Positions 14,694-58,301 of a stretch of DNA of 64,000 bases are shown here, in pieces. The stretch is taken from the NCBI GenBank assembly GCA_965215045.1, contig OZ244031.1, positions 1,066,626 through 1,130,625 on the forward strand, in the 5' to 3' direction. The stretch's first letter is position 1; each line of letters opens with the position of its first letter. Source of the DNA: Gammaproteobacteria bacterium. Lineage in GTDB: Bacteria; Pseudomonadota; Gammaproteobacteria; JABABF01. The notes under the pieces are model-generated. The model searched no databases and was not told the origin of the DNA. It saw nothing but the letters and a program-made list of their open reading frames with translations. A program made the position numbers and the translations under genes.

Positions 14694-14722
14694 AGCATAA
14701 ATTTTTTACCTGTTCTTGTCAA
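14694..14722 (-). promoter_or_regulatory. putative sigma70 promoter of bfr (TTGACA-17-TATGCT on minus strand)
   Basis: Minus-strand reading: TTGACA (14722-14717), 17-nt spacer, TATGCT (14699-14694), about 40 nt upstream of the bfr ATG. It shares the 13-mer ACACCGGTTTGAC with the promoter of the paralog-1 gene at 15316. Confidence 0.45.
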
Positions 14723-14800
14723 ACCGGTGTATGAGTTCTTGACTTGTGAGACGCTACAGGCTCATCCGCAGGCGGGAGAAGCGTCGGCGGTGCGGGCTAA

Positions 14801-14863
14801 GCCACCCCCCCTCTCAAGCCACCCCCCCTCTCAAAGCCACCCCCCCCCTCTCAAAGTCCCCCC
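14801..14863. repeat. three tandem copies of GCCACCCCCCCTCTCAAA (C7-C9 tracts); G7-G9 tracts on the minus-strand transcript
   Basis: Read directly. Lies in the 3' region immediately after the stop of the minus-strand paralog-1 gene (stop at 14851-14853). Four G-tracts in total give potential G-quadruplex or slippage behaviour. Confidence 0.8.
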
Positions 14864-15207
14864 CGGGTAACGATTGCGAGTATGCTCAGCTGGAGGAGGA
14901 CAATAATGCCGAACCCCCACCGTATCCATACGAAGGCCTGTTGGTTGCGTTTTTCAGACTCTTCATGGAGATACAGGCTGTATTTCTTAGACTCTTCATG
15001 GAGTTCCCGGCTGTATTTCTTAGCCTCTTCGTGGAGCTCCAGCATGCGCTGCTCAAGCTTCTCCAAGTCAGCGCGGATGGCCAGGCCCAGTTCTTTCACC
15101 ATGCTCGCCATCACCCGCAGGATACTGCGGATCTGCTGGTCGTCAAAGCCGGCTGCCTTCAGGTGTTCGCTCATGTCTTCGCGGTTTCGAAACGCTGGTT
15201 CAGTCAT
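14851..15207 (-). CDS. small membrane-anchored coiled-coil protein, paralog 1 of a three-member family (DUF1640-like architecture)
   Basis: 118 aa. Conserved N-terminus MTEPAFRNREDMSEHLKAAGFDDQQIRSIL..., 11-residue repeats (ELHEEAKKYSR/ELHEESKKYSL/YLHEESEKRNQ) and a C-terminal hydrophobic helix WIRWGFGIIVLLQLSILAIV. About 95 nt of 5' coding sequence plus the 5' leader are near-identical to the genes at 56679 and 57547. Confidence 0.6.
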   Translation of the reverse strand: MTEPAFRNREDMSEHLKAAGFDDQQIRSILRVMASMVKELGLAIRADLEKLEQRMLELHEEAKKYSRELHEESKKYSLYLHEESEKRNQQAFVWIRWGFGIIVLLQLSILAIVTRGGL

Positions 15208-15292
15208 GGTGACAATCTCCTTTTTGCCTCTTTCCAGAGGGTGGAAATAATACGCGCGTCCTGTGATTGTTCATCCTTGCCCCCTGCCTCAC

Positions 15293-15321
15293 ACTGTATT
15301 CGCTGTCTGCGGGAAAGTCAA
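15293..15321 (-). promoter_or_regulatory. near-consensus sigma70 promoter of paralog 1 (TTGACT-17-TACAGT on minus strand)
   Basis: Plus strand carries agtcaa (15316-15321) and actgta (15293-15298), spaced 17 bp apart. The same hexamers and a conserved 80-nt leader ending AAAAAGGAGATTGTCACC-ATG occur upstream of paralogs 2 and 3. Confidence 0.55.
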
Positions 15322-15372
15322 ACCGGTGTGAGAGTACCGCCATTACTGGCGCAAACGCTGACCGCGCGGGAT

Positions 15373-15981
15373 TTATTTCTTGCGCGAACGCCGCGTTGCG
15401 CGGTTCATCTTGCCGCAGCAGTTTTTATGTTTTTTGCCGCTGCCGCACGGGCACAGCTGGTCGCGGGTGGCGGGAATGACGTGTGTCGCACGCGGCTTGG
15501 ACGCCTGGAGCTTCGCCGTGTGCGGTTGGGCCTGGGCGGCTGCCGCATCCTGGGCGGCGACGAAATCAGTACCGCCCAGGGCCGGTGCCCGAAAGGAGAA
15601 CACGGTCTTGCCGCCCGCATAAGAGAGGGAGAGATCGCCCAGGCTGATGATGTCCAGGCCGACCACGCAGTCCCGCCCCCCGGGCAGGGGTTCCGCTCCC
15701 GCCACGGCCTGCACCCCGGCACAGCGGATATTGTTGGGAAGATGTACATCGGCGACGCAGAAGGAGACGCCCTGTTCATCCTGTTGCAACTCGAGTCCCA
15801 GGGCCTCGATCACCGCCTGTGACAAGCGGGTGCGCGGCTCCGCGGTGCTCCACAGGGATTTGGCCTTGACCGCCGGTTCGCTGCGGTCCGGCCCGGTGAT
15901 GCGCAGTTCCAGTTCGATGGCGTTGAGGCGACCGTTGGCACTCAAGGTGAAGGCGCGCGGCGGGATTCCGGCTTGTGACAT
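15373..15981 (-). CDS. SEC-C motif domain protein (YchJ-like), hypothetical
   Basis: C-terminal CPCGSGKKHKNCCG metal-binding SEC-C motif; 202 aa. Confidence 0.55.
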   Translation of the reverse strand: MSQAGIPPRAFTLSANGRLNAIELELRITGPDRSEPAVKAKSLWSTAEPRTRLSQAVIEALGLELQQDEQGVSFCVADVHLPNNIRCAGVQAVAGAEPLPGGRDCVVGLDIISLGDLSLSYAGGKTVFSFRAPALGGTDFVAAQDAAAAQAQPHTAKLQASKPRATHVIPATRDQLCPCGSGKKHKNCCGKMNRATRRSRKK

Positions 15982-15984
15982 GTT

Positions 15985-56592: not shown

Positions 56593-56678
56593 GTGATGCA
56601 GGGGGCCAGGGATTAGCAATCACAGGACGCGCGTATTACTTTCGCCCTCTGGAAAGAGGCAAAAAGGAGATTGTCACC

Positions 56679-57080
56679 ATGACTGAACCAGCGTTTCGAA
56701 ACCGCGAAGACATGAGCGAACACCTGAAGGCAGCCGGCTTTGACGACCAGCAGATCCGCAGTATCCTGCAGGTGGTAGCGGGGCTGATGAAAGAGATGGG
56801 CCTGGCCATCCGCGCCGACTTGGCGAAGAGTGAGCAGCGCAGCGATGAGCGTCATGAACGGGCCCAGAAACTCAGCGATGAGCGTCATGAACGGGCCCAG
56901 AAACTCAGCGATGAGCGTCATGAACGGGCCCAGAAACTCAGCGATGAGCGTCATCAGATCAACCTGGAATTGCATAAACAGGCCTTCTTATGGATACGGT
57001 GGGGGTTCGGCATGATCGGGTCTTTCCTGCTCGCCCTCCTGGGCATACTGATCACAGGTGTTATCAGGGGGTGGTTGTGA
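56679..57080 (+). CDS. small membrane-anchored coiled-coil protein, paralog 2 (DUF1640-like architecture)
   Basis: 133 aa. Same N-terminal 50 aa as paralogs 1 and 3. 3.5 copies of SDERHERAQKL from a perfect 33-bp DNA repeat at 56841-56957. C-terminal helix WIRWGFGMIGSFLLALLGILITGVI. Confidence 0.65.
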   Translation: MTEPAFRNREDMSEHLKAAGFDDQQIRSILQVVAGLMKEMGLAIRADLAKSEQRSDERHERAQKLSDERHERAQKLSDERHERAQKLSDERHQINLELHKQAFLWIRWGFGMIGSFLLALLGILITGVIRGWL

Positions 57081-57097
57081 TCCACTGCATCTGCCCG

Positions 57098-57220
57098 CAT
57101 CGCCCAGGGCGGCGACTGGGGTGCCCTGATCAGCACCGAGATGGGGCACCAGGACCCGGAAAACTGCGCCGGCGTGCACCTGAACATGCTGGTGGCGATG
57201 CCGCCTGCCTCAAAGACTGA
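57098..57220 (+). pseudogene. internally deleted fragment of the epoxide hydrolase gene (remnant of a tandem duplication)
   Basis: 57098-57204 matches hydrolase 54067-54177 (…IAQGGDWGA(M>L)ISTEMG…NMLVAMPP) and is joined at the 9-bp microhomology gccgcctgc to the last 12 nt of the hydrolase (ctcaaagactga; 54686-54697), removing about 508 bp. It carries several substitutions relative to the intact gene. Confidence 0.7.
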
Positions 57221-57431
57221 GGGAGACCCTGTCGGCTCCGCCCACCCGCCCCCCGGCTGCCGCACCGCCCGCGGTTTCCTGCTCCCGCACCGCCTGCCCC
57301 CGGCTGCCGCACCGGCTGCGGTTTCCTGCTCCTGCACCGCCCGCAGGCCTCTCCCCCGCTGTGCACCCCCGGACGATGACCCTCCAGAATCCCATAAATT
57401 ATGGACTTATATATTTTCCCGCGGGCGCGGG

Positions 57432-57460
57432 TTGACATTCCCGCAGGAGGCGAATATAGT
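57432..57460 (+). promoter_or_regulatory. near-consensus sigma70 promoter of paralog 3 (TTGACA-17-TATAGT)
   Basis: TTGACA 57432-57437, 17-nt spacer, TATAGT 57455-57460; the same conserved leader and ribosome-binding site follow. Confidence 0.6.
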
Positions 57461-57546
57461 GTGATGCAGGGGGCCAGGGATTAGCAATCACAGGACGCGC
57501 GTATTACTTTCGCCCTCTGGAAAGAGGCAAAAAGGAGATTGTCACC

Positions 57547-58215
57547 ATGACTGAACCAGCGTTTCGAAACCGCGAAGATATGAGCGAACACCTGAAGGCA
57601 GCCGGCCTTGACGACCAGCAGATCCGCAGTATCCTGCAGGTGGTAGCGGGGCTGATGAAAGAGACGGGCCTGGCCATCCGCGCCGACTTGGCGAAGAGTG
57701 AGAAACGCAGCGATGAGCGTCATGAGCAGACCCAGAAACTCATCGAGGTGCATCGTCAGGACAGCCTGGCTCGTGAGAAACGCAACGATGAGCGTCATGA
57801 GCAGACCCAGAAACGCAACGATGAGCGTCATAAGCAGACCCAGAAACTCATCGAGGTGCATCGTCAGGACAGCCTGGCTCGTGAGAAACGCAACGATGAG
57901 CGTCATGAGCAGACCCAGAAACTCATCGAGGTGCATCGTCAGGACAGCCTGGCTCGTGAGAAACTCAACGATGAGCGTCATAAGCAGACCCAGAAACTCA
58001 TCGAGGTGCATCGTCAGGACAGCCTGGCTCGTGAGAAACGCAGTGATGAGCGTCATGAGCAGGCCCAGAAACTCATCGAGGTGCATCATCAGACTAACCT
58101 GATGTTGCATAAACAGGCCTTCTTATGGATACGGTGGGGGTTCGGCATTATCGGGTCTTTCCTGCTCGCCCTCCTGGGCATACTGATCACAGGTGTTATC
58201 AGGGGGTGGTTGTGA
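57547..58215 (+). CDS. small membrane-anchored coiled-coil protein, paralog 3, with an expanded repeat region (DUF1640-like architecture)
   Basis: 222 aa. Same N-terminus. About 4.4 copies of a 25-aa (75-bp) unit RNDERHEQTQKLIEVHRQDSLAREK plus one 11-aa (33-bp) short unit, 57705-58100. Same C-terminal helix and GVIRGWL end as paralog 2. Confidence 0.65.
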   Translation: MTEPAFRNREDMSEHLKAAGLDDQQIRSILQVVAGLMKETGLAIRADLAKSEKRSDERHEQTQKLIEVHRQDSLAREKRNDERHEQTQKRNDERHKQTQKLIEVHRQDSLAREKRNDERHEQTQKLIEVHRQDSLAREKLNDERHKQTQKLIEVHRQDSLAREKRSDERHEQAQKLIEVHHQTNLMLHKQAFLWIRWGFGIIGSFLLALLGILITGVIRGWL

Positions 58216-58301
58216 TCCACTGCATCTGCCCGCATCGCCGACGCTACTCCCGCCTGCGGATGAGCCTGTAGCGTCTCAGCCGCCCCGCCGGCTGAAAGCA
58301 T

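What the first reader, a model, noticed from the sequence alone, without database searches (positions are those of the whole stretch)
14700..58300. Three-member family of repeat-containing membrane-anchored coiled-coil proteins behind identical near-consensus promoters
Three small genes, at 14851-15207(-), 56679-57080(+) and 57547-58215(+), share the same parts. Each has a near-identical 50-aa N-terminal domain (MTEPAFRNREDMSEHLKAAGFDDQQIRSIL...GLAIRADL), a central module of 11-residue (33-bp) repeats whose sequence and copy number differ between paralogs (ELHEEAKKYSR x about 2.5; SDERHERAQKL x 3.5; a 25-aa superunit x about 4.4), and a conserved C-terminal transmembrane helix (WIRWGFGxIxxxLLxxLxIL). 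All three sit behind almost identical sigma70 promoters (TTGACw-17-TAyAGT) with a flanking TTCCCGCAGG direct repeat. The conserved 80-nt 5' leader contains a CCTCTggaaAGAGG hairpin just before a strong AGGAGA ribosome-binding site. The architecture (N-terminal helical domain, hendecad amphipathic repeats, C-terminal anchor) recalls DUF1640-type proteins, whose function is unknown. Promoter strength, a conserved leader and length-variable repeats together suggest a highly expressed, possibly phase- or length-variable envelope or stress-protein system.
Basis: partly seen in the sequence, partly recalled or inferred. Interest (0 to 1): 0.8.

Follow-up and report, generated by a model that had tools for sequence, protein, structure and literature searches.

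The report
Divergent DUF1640-like tail-anchored protein family
Three small genes in this window belong to a rare family of at least eight copies per genome, encoding membrane-anchored helical-stalk proteins distantly related to the DUF1640/CCDC90 family. Each copy has its own conserved promoter, leader and 3' tail, their stalk lengths change by whole-repeat gains and losses, and their function is still unknown.

Summary
Three ORFs (14851-15207-, 56679-57080+, 57547-58215+) share a near-identical 50-aa head and a C-terminal membrane helix. They carry in-frame repeats (33 bp x2.5, 33 bp x3.5 at 100% identity, 75 bp x3.8). About 130 nt upstream is almost identical in all three: a sigma70-like promoter, a leader with a CCTCT-GGAA-AGAGG hairpin, and an AGGAGA ribosome-binding site.

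The DUF1640 guess is supported as remote homology. Pfam PF07798 scores fall below its cut-off. Profile-profile comparison with 32 bacterial PF07798 proteins gives 96% probability (E 8e-10 to 8e-9), against 0.4-0.6% for a reversed control. Head, neck motif, repeat stalk and W-x-x-W-G anchor align in the same order.

"Three members" is an undercount. Five more paralogs appear to lie on the same 2.08-Mb contig, and the family is nearly absent elsewhere (about 12 clusters among 5.8 billion).

The proteins are tail-anchored and face the cytoplasm, so an envelope or phase-variable reading is not supported. Length variation by whole repeats is real. Promoter, leader end and a 3' tail are conserved across subfamilies that are only 32-41% identical in protein. 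Each unit is flanked by roughly 20-nt direct repeats, which looks cassette-like. Function is unknown; the best guess is a co-regulated set of membrane-tethered scaffolds.

The parts
15293..15321 (-). Unit A promoter-like site, TTGACT-17-TACAGT
   Evidence: 9/12 matches. Conserved in all family loci.
15208..15292 (-). Unit A 5' leader. Contains the CCTCT-GGAA-AGAGG hairpin (15226-15240) and an AGGAGA ribosome-binding site 8 nt before the ATG.
   Evidence: The fold is no more stable than shuffles.
14851..15207 (-). Gene A, 118 aa: head (1-48), stalk with ELHEEAKKYSR repeats (33 bp x2.5 at 14956-15036), C-terminal TM helix (about residues 95-113).
   Evidence: Hydrophobic period 3.64, i.e. hendecad.
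14799..14864 (-). G-rich 17-18-nt tandem repeat x3.6 overlapping and following the stop of A. The units are reiterated copies of the last codons (R-G-(G)-W-L-stop) and contain G7-G9 runs.
14730..14798 (-). Unit A conserved 3' tail (CGCCGACGCTTCTCCCGCCTGCGGATGAGCCTGTAGCGTCTCACAAGTCAAGAACTCATA).
   Evidence: The same tail lies upstream of bfr in a related strain (L008).
14718..14729 (-). CACCGGTTTGAC, the 3' copy of the direct repeat that brackets unit A (5' copy at 15317-15328). It contains the -35 of the bacterioferritin promoter (14694-14722).
56470..56545 (+). Remnant of a cassette 3' tail end upstream of B (CCCCGGACGATGAGCCTCCAGAATCCCATAAATTATGGACTTATA). It matches the 3' end of L007.
56564..56592 (+). 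Unit B promoter-like site, TTGACT-17-TACAGT. TTCCCGCAGG direct repeat at 56548 and 56570.
56593..56678 (+). Unit B 5' leader. Hairpin at 56646-56660, AGGAGA at 56665-56670.
56679..57080 (+). Gene B, 133 aa: head, SDERHERAQKL x3.5 (33 bp x3.5, 100% identical, 56840-56954), C-terminal TM helix.
57081..57431 (+). B-C spacer. Starts with 17 nt shared with the tail of C, then a GC-rich stretch with a 47-nt x2 direct repeat (57250-57341) and a tail-end remnant (57345-57413).
57432..57460 (+). Unit C promoter-like site, TTGACA-17-TATAGT.
   Evidence: 11/12 matches.
57461..57546 (+). Unit C 5' leader. Hairpin at 57514-57528.
57547..58215 (+). Gene C, 222 aa: head, 25-aa superunits (75 bp x3.8 plus one extra 33-bp unit, 57701-58092), C-terminal TM helix.
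58216..58278 (+). Unit C conserved 3' tail.
   Evidence: Identical in L009.

Best explanation
A, B and C are real, separately transcribed genes. They belong to a lineage-restricted, multi-copy family (at least 8 copies in this genome, in two subfamilies) that is a divergent branch of the DUF1640/CCDC90-like membrane proteins.

Shown here:
- Each protein has a small N-terminal head (short helix, loop, then a long helix).
- A neck motif, L-A-I-R-A-D-L, aligns with the DUF1640 beta-layer motif (aliphatic-A-T-K-x-D).
- An alpha-helical stalk is built from 11-residue units that nearly always carry a His-Glu pair.
- A single C-terminal transmembrane helix has at most 7 residues after it.
- Stalk length changes by gain and loss of whole in-frame repeat units.
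- Each gene is a self-contained unit: sigma70-type promoter, leader of about 85 nt with a small GNRA-loop hairpin, strong ribosome-binding site, and a 3' tail of 60-100 nt.
- The promoter, the last 48 nt of the leader and the tail are kept between subfamilies whose proteins are only 32-41% identical.

Inferred, not shown:
- The proteins are tail-anchored in the inner membrane, with head and stalk in the cytoplasm.
- They probably form trimers, as the solved DUF1640 relatives do.
- They act as membrane-tethered scaffolds or adaptors that hold the conserved head at different distances from the membrane. Stalks of 47 to 152 residues would span roughly 7 to 23 nm if fully helical.
- The copies are co-regulated through the shared promoter and leader.
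- The family expanded by duplication and relocation of whole promoter-gene-tail units, with gene conversion keeping the 5' ends alike.
For: Gene reality and shared parts.

Repeats, all multiples of 3 bp.

Homology to DUF1640:
- Sub-threshold PF07798 hits to the head: B E=2.4e-4, A E=0.018.
- P0015, a distant hit (E 8e-4) of the window protein B, is a bona fide PF07798 member at 38.7 bits against a cut-off of 33.5.
- hhalign of the family (A7) against 32 PF07798-annotated bacterial proteins (A6): local 95.8%, E 8.3e-9. Global 96.5%, E 8e-10, covering residues 1-133 and aligning WIRWG with KWxxG.
- Reversed-template control: 0.4-0.6%.
- The A6 profile hits the solved DUF1640 structures 6H9L (E 2e-8) and CCDC90B 6H9M (E 5.5e-5), each entry holding three chains of that sequence.
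- The DUF1640 family is described as head, beta-layer neck, stalk and TM (PMC6801532 citing Adlakha 2019), with beta-layer consensus [aliphatic]-A-T-K-[polar]-[DE], K or R allowed (PMC4786415).

Structure and topology:
- AF2 model: pLDDT 83, helix 9-18, then one helix 23-129.
- C-terminal 19-mers have Kyte-Doolittle means of 2.0-2.8 with 0-7 residues after them.
- Hydrophobic period is 3.6-3.64 in A, P0002, P0018, P0020 and in the DUF1640 protein P0015.

Family size and rarity.

Whole-repeat length differences between close relatives.

Conservation outside the coding region:
- L004 keeps the promoter. The last 48 nt of its leader are 79-90% identical to the subfamily-1 units (88-90% to A, B and C), against 74-78% for the first 150 nt of CDS.
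- The tail is conserved in A, C, L001, L004, L006, L007 and L008.

No conserved gene neighbours. Copies sit next to bfr, a methylase/IceA ORF, dnaJ, trpC, nadE/ligT and an aldolase-like ORF (by eye, not tested).
Against: - Pfam's gathering threshold is not met by any of the three, and C gives no PF07798 hit at all.
- Foldseek against the PDB found nothing (best E=1). The monomer AF2 model shows a continuous helix through the proposed beta-layer.
- The neck motif matches only 4 of 6 consensus positions in A, B and C (I for T, A at the polar position; R for K is allowed).
- B and C stalks lack an amphipathic 3.67 periodicity and are about 44% charged. They may be single alpha-helices rather than coiled coils.
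- Head-domain dN/dS is about 1 in many pairs. Protein-level purifying selection is therefore not demonstrated, although there are only about 24 synonymous sites and codon bias is strong.
- Oligomeric state, topology, expression, co-regulation and the scaffold function are all untested.
Confidence: 0.62

Rival explanations
1. A highly expressed, phase- or length-variable envelope or surface protein system. Repeat slippage would vary an exposed structure or switch it on and off.
For: - Perfect 33-bp x3.5 repeats in B, and copy-number differences among relatives.
- G7-G9 runs at and after the stop codon of A.
- Strong promoter-like site and ribosome-binding site.
Against: - No N-terminal signal or hydrophobic segment. 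The only TM helix is at the very C-terminus with 0-7 residues beyond it, so the variable stalk is predicted to be cytoplasmic.
- All coding repeats are multiples of 3 bp (33, 75 and 21), so there is no frame switching.
- The poly-G run in A could alter only the last few residues.
Confidence: 0.07
2. A mobile or selfish promoter-gene-tail cassette. The conserved unit, flanked by direct repeats of roughly 20 nt, spreads to intergenic sites through circular intermediates and recombination. Its conservation would reflect mobility more than a host function.
For: - Direct repeat CACCGGTTTGAC on both sides of unit A.
- A roughly 20-nt imperfect repeat flanks the L004 unit, seen by eye only; the repeat finder covered L001 only.
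- Tail-end remnants lie upstream of B and C.
- In L001 the unit lies in a 1.26-kb insert bracketed by duplicated dnaJ 3' ends, as expected for single-crossover insertion of a circle.
- Units have about 55% GC in a genome with 65-72% GC.
- Every copy sits in a different housekeeping neighbourhood.
- This rival can coexist with the main reading.
Against: - No recombinase, transposase or inverted terminal repeats are associated with any copy.
- No relatives in phage, plasmid or viral collections.
- The low GC can be explained by Glu/Lys/Gln-rich coding.
- The direct repeats are short and imperfect.
- L001 is a metagenome assembly and could be misassembled.
- No empty site was found for comparison.
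Confidence: 0.15
3. Phage-derived XhlA-like or holin-associated lysis proteins, or prophage DUF1640 remnants.
For: - The paralog P0019 has a sub-threshold XhlA hit at 26.5 bits against a cut-off of 34.7, and a phrog 'hemolysin' hit at E 1e-4.
- Some bacterial DUF1640 genes lie in prophage regions (PMC5291501).
- B and C sit next to a restriction-modification-like ORF in a lower-GC stretch.
Against: - The three window proteins give no XhlA hit at E<=10.
- No phage, plasmid or IMG/VR relatives.
- No phage genes were seen among the genes checked next to A, B and C or in the gene tables of L001, L002 and L004.
- Eight dispersed copies with their own sigma70-like promoters is not a lysis-cassette arrangement.
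Confidence: 0.05
4. Metal- or pH-responsive tail-anchored proteins. The His-Glu pair kept once per 11-residue unit would line one face of the stalk and bind metal or sense protonation, possibly linked to iron handling.
For: - H59 and E60 are nearly invariant, and HE recurs in most units across the family.
- Unit A lies directly upstream of bacterioferritin on the same strand with no predicted terminator between them. This arrangement is kept in a related strain.
Against: - No known metal-binding motif or family hit.
- Other copies have unrelated neighbours.
- P0019 replaces most units with Gln-rich heptads.
- The idea rests purely on sequence pattern.
Confidence: 0.08

Closest known systems
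DUF1640 / CCDC90-like family (Pfam PF07798; MCUR1, CCDC90B, yeast Put6/Put7; bacterial members; structures 6H9L, 6H9M)
   Same: - Same order of parts: a head of about 35-45 aa around a conserved 'L..AGF...Q...I' core, a neck motif at the start of the stalk, a stalk of 11-residue repeats in variable number, and a W-containing juxtamembrane motif followed by a C-terminal TM helix.
- Profile-profile probability 96%.
   Different: - Below the Pfam threshold.
- Neck is L-A-I-R-A-D or L-P-T-R-A-D instead of L-A-T-K-x-D.
- Stalk units are His/Glu/Arg-rich (ERHERAQKLSD) rather than ELKQDIxxVRx. B and C have lost the hydrophobic seam.
- Expanded to at least 8 copies per genome, with a shared promoter, leader and 3' tail.
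ElaB/YqjD/YgaM (DUF883), the E. coli stationary-phase, ribosome-associated tail-anchored inner-membrane proteins (from my own knowledge)
   Same: Small proteins with a cytoplasmic helical N-terminal part and a single C-terminal TM anchor, present as several paralogs in one genome.
   Different: - No sequence relationship detected; no DUF883 hit at E<=10.
- No repeat stalk.
- This is a functional analogy only.
XhlA haemolysin (PF10779) of phage lysis modules
   Same: A short coiled coil followed by a C-terminal TM helix. One paralog (P0019) scores 26.5 bits.
   Different: - The window proteins have no hit.
- XhlA has no N-terminal head.
- No phage context.

Membership tests
DUF1640 / CCDC90-like (PF07798) | Scores at or above the Pfam gathering threshold (33.5 bits) | tested here: not met
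   B 21.4 bits (E 2.4e-4), A 15.4 bits (E 0.018), C no hit. Among other family members, one search gives P0005 17.9 bits and no PF07798 hit for the rest scanned (P0002, P0006, P0018, P0019, P0020).
DUF1640 / CCDC90-like (PF07798) | Detectable homology of the head domain to bona fide members | tested here: met
   hhalign A7 vs A6 (32 PF07798-annotated proteins): 95.8%, E 8.3e-9 local over residues 12-50. 96.5%, E 8e-10 global. Reversed control 0.4-0.6%.
DUF1640 / CCDC90-like (PF07798) | Beta-layer motif [aliphatic]-A-T-K-[polar]-[DE] at the start of the stalk (PMC4786415) | tested here: inconclusive
   A, B and C have L-A-I-R-A-D. Other family members have L-P-T-R-A-D/E. hhalign aligns this with NLATKxD. 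K to R is allowed by the paper, but T to I, A to P and a non-polar fifth position are departures. The monomer AF2 model shows a helix here.
DUF1640 / CCDC90-like (PF07798) | Single C-terminal transmembrane segment after the stalk | tested here: met
   best 19-mer hydropathy is 2.1-2.5 at residues 95-113 (A), 111-129 (B) and 200-218 (C), with 4-5 residues after it.
DUF1640 / CCDC90-like (PF07798) | Coiled-coil stalk (non-heptad/hendecad periodicity in bacterial members) | tested here: inconclusive
   A peaks at 3.64 residues, like the DUF1640 protein P0015 at 3.60. B and C show no amphipathic peak near 3.5-3.67 and are about 44% charged.
DUF1640 / CCDC90-like (PF07798) | Trimeric assembly | not testable with these tools
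   Only monomer prediction was available. Solved relatives 6H9L and 6H9M hold three chains per entry.
XhlA haemolysin (PF10779) | Pfam model match | tested here: not met
   No hit at E<=10 for A, B or C. The paralog P0019 scores 26.5 bits, below the 34.7 cut-off.
ElaB/YqjD/YgaM (DUF883) | Pfam model match | tested here: not met
   No DUF883 family among hits at E<=10.
Phase-variable contingency locus | Simple repeat whose copy change shifts the reading frame or the promoter spacing | tested here: not met
   Coding repeats are 33 and 75 bp, so they stay in frame. The promoter spacer is a constant 17 nt. The only homopolymer (G7) lies in the last codons of A.
Structured cis-regulatory leader RNA (riboswitch, thermometer) | Match to an Rfam family, or folding or covariation above background | tested here: not met
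   At gathering thresholds, Rfam finds only tRNA-Gln in the window. Leader fold z-scores run from -0.7 to +1.0. The hairpin is invariant, so there is no covariation to assess.

The most novel reading that the evidence does not exclude
The unit is a new kind of self-contained, promoter-bearing gene cassette bounded by direct repeats. It would have colonised at least eight intergenic sites without any transposase, through circular intermediates and recombination, as the dnaJ-end duplication in L001 suggests. The result would be a co-regulated set of cytoplasmic 'molecular rulers': one conserved head held at different distances from the membrane by rapidly evolving His-rich stalks.
Probability: 0.12. 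Interest if true: 0.65.

Novelty: new variant of a known kind. Interest (0 to 1): 0.42.

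Why it matters
Bacterial DUF1640 proteins have no known function, although they are the prokaryotic relatives of the mitochondrial scaffolds MCUR1 and CCDC90B. This lineage offers several handles for experiment:
- It has expanded a divergent branch to at least eight copies.
- It keeps the promoter and leader under tighter conservation than the protein.
- It varies stalk length in whole repeat units.

Together these provide a shared regulatory signal to identify, natural length variants to compare, and a conserved head to use as bait. The cassette-like flanks may also show how small promoter-bearing genes spread within a genome. None of this overturns current knowledge. 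It is a well-defined but modest lead.

Tried and rejected
- Foldseek of the AF2 model against the PDB: no meaningful match, best E=1. The fold is too simple to be informative.
- Profile search of the PDB with the family alignment: 6H9L only at E=0.11.
- Rfam on the whole window: only a tRNA.
- Leader folding: no excess stability.
- RNAalifold on seven 3' tails: no consensus structure, no covariation.
- Intrinsic-terminator scan: none after any of the three genes.
- Metagenome scan for the hairpin + RBS pattern: a single chance match in an AT-rich contig, L005.
- GTDB genome scan: one spurious repeat-region match, L003. The source organism could not be identified.
- Phage, plasmid and IMG/VR searches: nothing.
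- PADLOC: nothing for A, B or C.
- PHROG hits: marginal only, E about 2e-4.
- Searching for repeat-number variants at the same loci in related strains failed. Short-read contigs break inside the genes (L008, L009).
- dN/dS on the head gave values around 1 with very few synonymous sites, so it is not usable as evidence either way.
- P0004 (L002) appears to lack the anchor, but by eye the contig ends in what looks like Illumina adapter sequence (AGATCGGAAG..GTCGTGTAGGGAAAGAGTGTAGATCTCGGTGG; not checked with a tool). If so, its C-terminus is an artefact.
- A Fur-box reading of the leader was considered and dropped. It was checked only by eye, with no tool run; the similarity was weak and it is absent from L004.

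Full report
**1. Observation**

The three ORFs exist exactly as described:
- A: 14851-15207 on the minus strand, 118 aa.
- B: 56679-57080 on the plus strand, 133 aa.
- C: 57547-58215 on the plus strand, 222 aa.

Their proteins align with a nearly invariant first 50 residues and a conserved C-terminal FxWIRWGFG + hydrophobic segment. The middle differs.

Tandem Repeats Finder confirms the repeats:
- A: 33 bp x2.5, 89% matches.
- B: 33 bp x3.5, 100% matches.
- C: 75 bp x3.8, 95% matches, plus one extra 33-bp unit (108-bp period).

The upstream DNA is almost identical in all three from the -35 hexamer to the ATG. The consensus scan calls TTGACA-17-TATAGT (11/12) for C and TTGACT-17-TACAGT (9/12) for A and B. 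The hairpin sequence CCTCTGGAAAGAGGC occurs three times against 0.09 expected. It has a 5-bp stem and a GGAA loop, and lies 5 nt before an AGGAGA site that sits 8 nt from the ATG.

Two details of the finding need correcting. The TTCCCGCAGG direct repeat flanks the -35 only at B and, imperfectly, at C. 'Near-consensus' strictly fits only C.

**2. Size and spread of the family**

The family is extremely rare:
- A word-indexed search of 5.8 billion proteins found 4 relatives.
- An exhaustive phmmer search of 1.8 billion representatives found 15 hits, most of them repeat-driven.
- A profile search found 11.

Five further proteins (P0006, P0008, P0019, P0020, P0023) are each recorded on one contig of 2,082,957 bp from NCBI+ENA. 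The most economical reading is at least eight paralogs in this genome.

They fall into two subfamilies:
- MTEPAFRNREDMSEHLKAAGFDDQQ...
- MAQLEFEDRKDMSEDLRVSGFDTPQ...

The two subfamilies are 32-41% identical to B. Only three copies lie in the window (tblastn). The remaining relatives come from four metagenome samples (L001, L002, L004, L006, L007). No relatives were found in phage, plasmid or IMG/VR collections. I could not identify the organism.

**3. What the proteins are**

Pfam gives only sub-threshold hits of the head to PF07798 (CCDC90-like, formerly DUF1640): B 21.4 bits and A 15.4 bits, against a cut-off of 33.5.

A distant hit (E 8e-4) of the window protein B, P0015, is a bona fide PF07798 member at 38.7 bits. 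I collected 32 PF07798-annotated bacterial proteins around it and aligned them (A6).

These bacterial proteins show the same anatomy as the window family:
- A head of about 35 residues around 'L..AGf...qAe.i'.
- The motif NLATKxDL.
- A variable number of 11-residue units, ELKQDIxxVRx.
- A 'KWxxG' + TM helix at the C-terminus.

hhalign of the window family (A7, 10 sequences) against A6 gave these results:

| Comparison | Probability | E-value | Coverage |
|---|---|---|---|
| Local | 95.8% | 8.3e-9 | residues 12-50 |
| Global | 96.5% | 8e-10 | residues 1-133, WIRWG aligned to KWxxG |
| Reversed-template control | 0.4-0.6% | 0.045-0.15 | none meaningful |

The A6 profile in turn hits the solved DUF1640 structures 6H9L (E 2e-8) and CCDC90B 6H9M (E 5.5e-5). 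Each of these entries holds three chains of that sequence.

The literature describes the family as head, beta-layer neck, stalk and TM (PMC6801532, citing Adlakha et al. 2019). [quoted passage not shown] The window proteins have L-A-I-R-A-D at that place, and other family members have L-P-T-R-A-D/E. This is close to the consensus but not canonical.

AF2 with the family alignment (pLDDT 83) gives helix 9-18, a loop, and one helix 23-129. Foldseek found nothing useful.

I conclude that these proteins are a divergent branch of DUF1640. Homology is supported, but formal Pfam membership is not met.

**4. Topology and stalk**

The only hydrophobic segment is the last 19-24 residues, with Kyte-Doolittle means of 2.0-2.8. 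Between 0 and 7 residues follow it. There is no N-terminal signal. The proteins are therefore predicted to be tail-anchored, with head and stalk in the cytoplasm (inference).

Hydrophobic periodicity of the stalk differs among members:
- A, P0002, P0018, P0020 and the DUF1640 protein P0015: 3.60-3.64 residues, i.e. hendecad.
- P0019: 3.55 residues, from QQMQQSI heptads.
- B and C: no amphipathic peak, and about 44% charged residues.

In B and C, Arg replaces Leu at the first core position (ERHERAQKLSD versus ELHEEAKKYSR). These stalks may therefore be weak coiled coils or ER/K-type single helices (inference).

A His-Glu pair is kept in nearly every unit; H59 and E60 are nearly invariant. I cannot explain this. 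Metal or pH sensing is a speculative rival.

**5. Length variation**

Close relatives differ by whole repeat units:
- P0018 has one 11-aa unit more than P0005.
- P0006 equals P0021 plus 11 aa.
- P0019 equals P0021 plus 21 aa.

B's units are 100% identical at the DNA level, which implies recent expansion. All units are multiples of 3 bp. This is length variation, not on/off phase variation.

Same-locus comparisons in related strains failed because short-read contigs break inside the genes.

**6. The non-coding parts**

In L004 (subfamily 2) three blocks are kept, while the middle of the leader differs in sequence and length:
- The promoter block, CACACCGGTTTGAC-TCTCCCGCAGG-...-TACAGT.
- A CACAGGACG block.
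- The last roughly 48 nt of the leader.

The last 48 nt are 79-90% identical between L004 and the subfamily-1 units (88-90% to A, B and C), against 74-78% for the first 150 nt of coding sequence. L006 lacks the leader.

The leader does not fold better than shuffled controls and matches no Rfam family. The conservation is therefore at the sequence level. That fits a shared protein-binding or promoter signal, or gene conversion. A and B are 100% identical over CDS nt 1-60 but only 88% over nt 61-150.

A 3' tail of 60-100 nt (CGCCGACGCtTCTCCCGCC..CGGATGAGCCT....CTCACAAGTtAAGAACT...) is conserved in A, C, L001, L004, L006, L007 and L008. It has no consensus structure, and no intrinsic terminator is predicted. 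Its role is unexplained.

**7. Cassette-like organisation**

- Unit A is bracketed by CACCGGTTTGAC at 15317-15328 and 14718-14729. The second copy contains the -35 of the bacterioferritin promoter.
- The L004 unit is flanked by a roughly 20-nt imperfect direct repeat, seen by eye only.
- The stretches upstream of B and C are tail-end remnants, identical in pattern to the 3' end of L007. B and C therefore look like members of a tandem series.
- In L001 the unit, together with a 69-aa coiled-coil/TM ORF, lies in a 1.26-kb insert bracketed by two copies of the 3' end of dnaJ. That is the signature of a single-crossover insertion, provided the metagenome assembly is correct.
- The units have about 55% GC against flanks of 65-72%.
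- No recombinase is associated with any copy.

I treat mobility as a rival or complement with about 0.15 confidence.

**8. Comparison and verdict**

| Candidate | Result |
|---|---|
| DUF1640/CCDC90-like | Closest known family. Same architecture and detectable head homology, but a divergent neck, a His/Arg-rich stalk, multi-copy expansion and shared regulatory flanks. |
| XhlA | Membership tested and not met. |
| DUF883 (ElaB/YqjD) | Membership tested and not met. Analogy only. |

The envelope, phase-variation and 'three-member' parts are not.

Function remains unknown. The best-supported model is a co-regulated set of cytoplasm-facing, tail-anchored and probably trimeric scaffolds with different stalk lengths.

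Novelty: a new variant of a known kind. Interest: moderate.

Noticed in passing
window 55039-56433 (+): One 464-aa ORF joins the N-terminal half of an N6/N4 DNA methylase (PF01555, profile positions 1-110 of 221) to an IceA/NlaIII-type endonuclease domain (PF05315, E 9e-40). It looks like a fused or decayed type II restriction-modification gene. It lies in a lower-GC stretch (53-57% GC, about 55.0-58.3 kb) together with B and C.
   Followed up: partly
window 14799-14864 (-): The G-rich 17-18-nt tandem repeat x3.6 at and after the stop of gene A consists of reiterated copies of the gene's last codons (R-G-(G)-W-L-stop) with G7-G9 runs. Slippage would change only the short tail beyond the membrane helix. 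L001 has two such units.
   Followed up: partly
window 14694-14729 (-) and 14170-14649 (-): The bacterioferritin gene lies directly downstream of unit A on the same strand. Its promoter-like site (TTGACA-17-TATGCT, 10/12) begins with the same CACCGGTTTGAC as the family promoter. A related strain (L008) has the same tail-promoter-bfr arrangement.
   Followed up: partly
L001 9658-11136: A 1.26-kb insert after dnaJ carries the family gene plus a 69-aa coiled-coil/TM ORF (10687-10896, lower GC by eye, no Pfam or PHROG hit). It is bracketed by two copies of the dnaJ 3' end (9658-9701/9809-9873 versus 11011-11054/11072-11136).
   Followed up: partly
window 57250-57341 (+): A GC-rich 47-nt x2 direct repeat (93% matches) lies in the B-C spacer. 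Its role is unknown.
   Followed up: no
L002 4120-4172: By eye, the contig end appears to be Illumina adapter sequence (not checked with a tool). The database protein P0004 would then have an artificial C-terminus and only appear to lack the membrane anchor.
   Followed up: partly
window 15373-15981 (-): A 202-aa protein whose only recognisable feature is a C-terminal SEC-C metal-binding motif lies immediately upstream of unit A.
   Followed up: no
window 56679-56792, 57547-57660, 15094-15207 and related loci: Synonymous sites in the first 38 codons are about as conserved as non-synonymous ones. Nei-Gojobori dN/dS is about 0.3-4.7, from only about 24 synonymous sites. This hints at nucleotide-level constraint or gene conversion at the 5' end of the genes.
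   Followed up: partly
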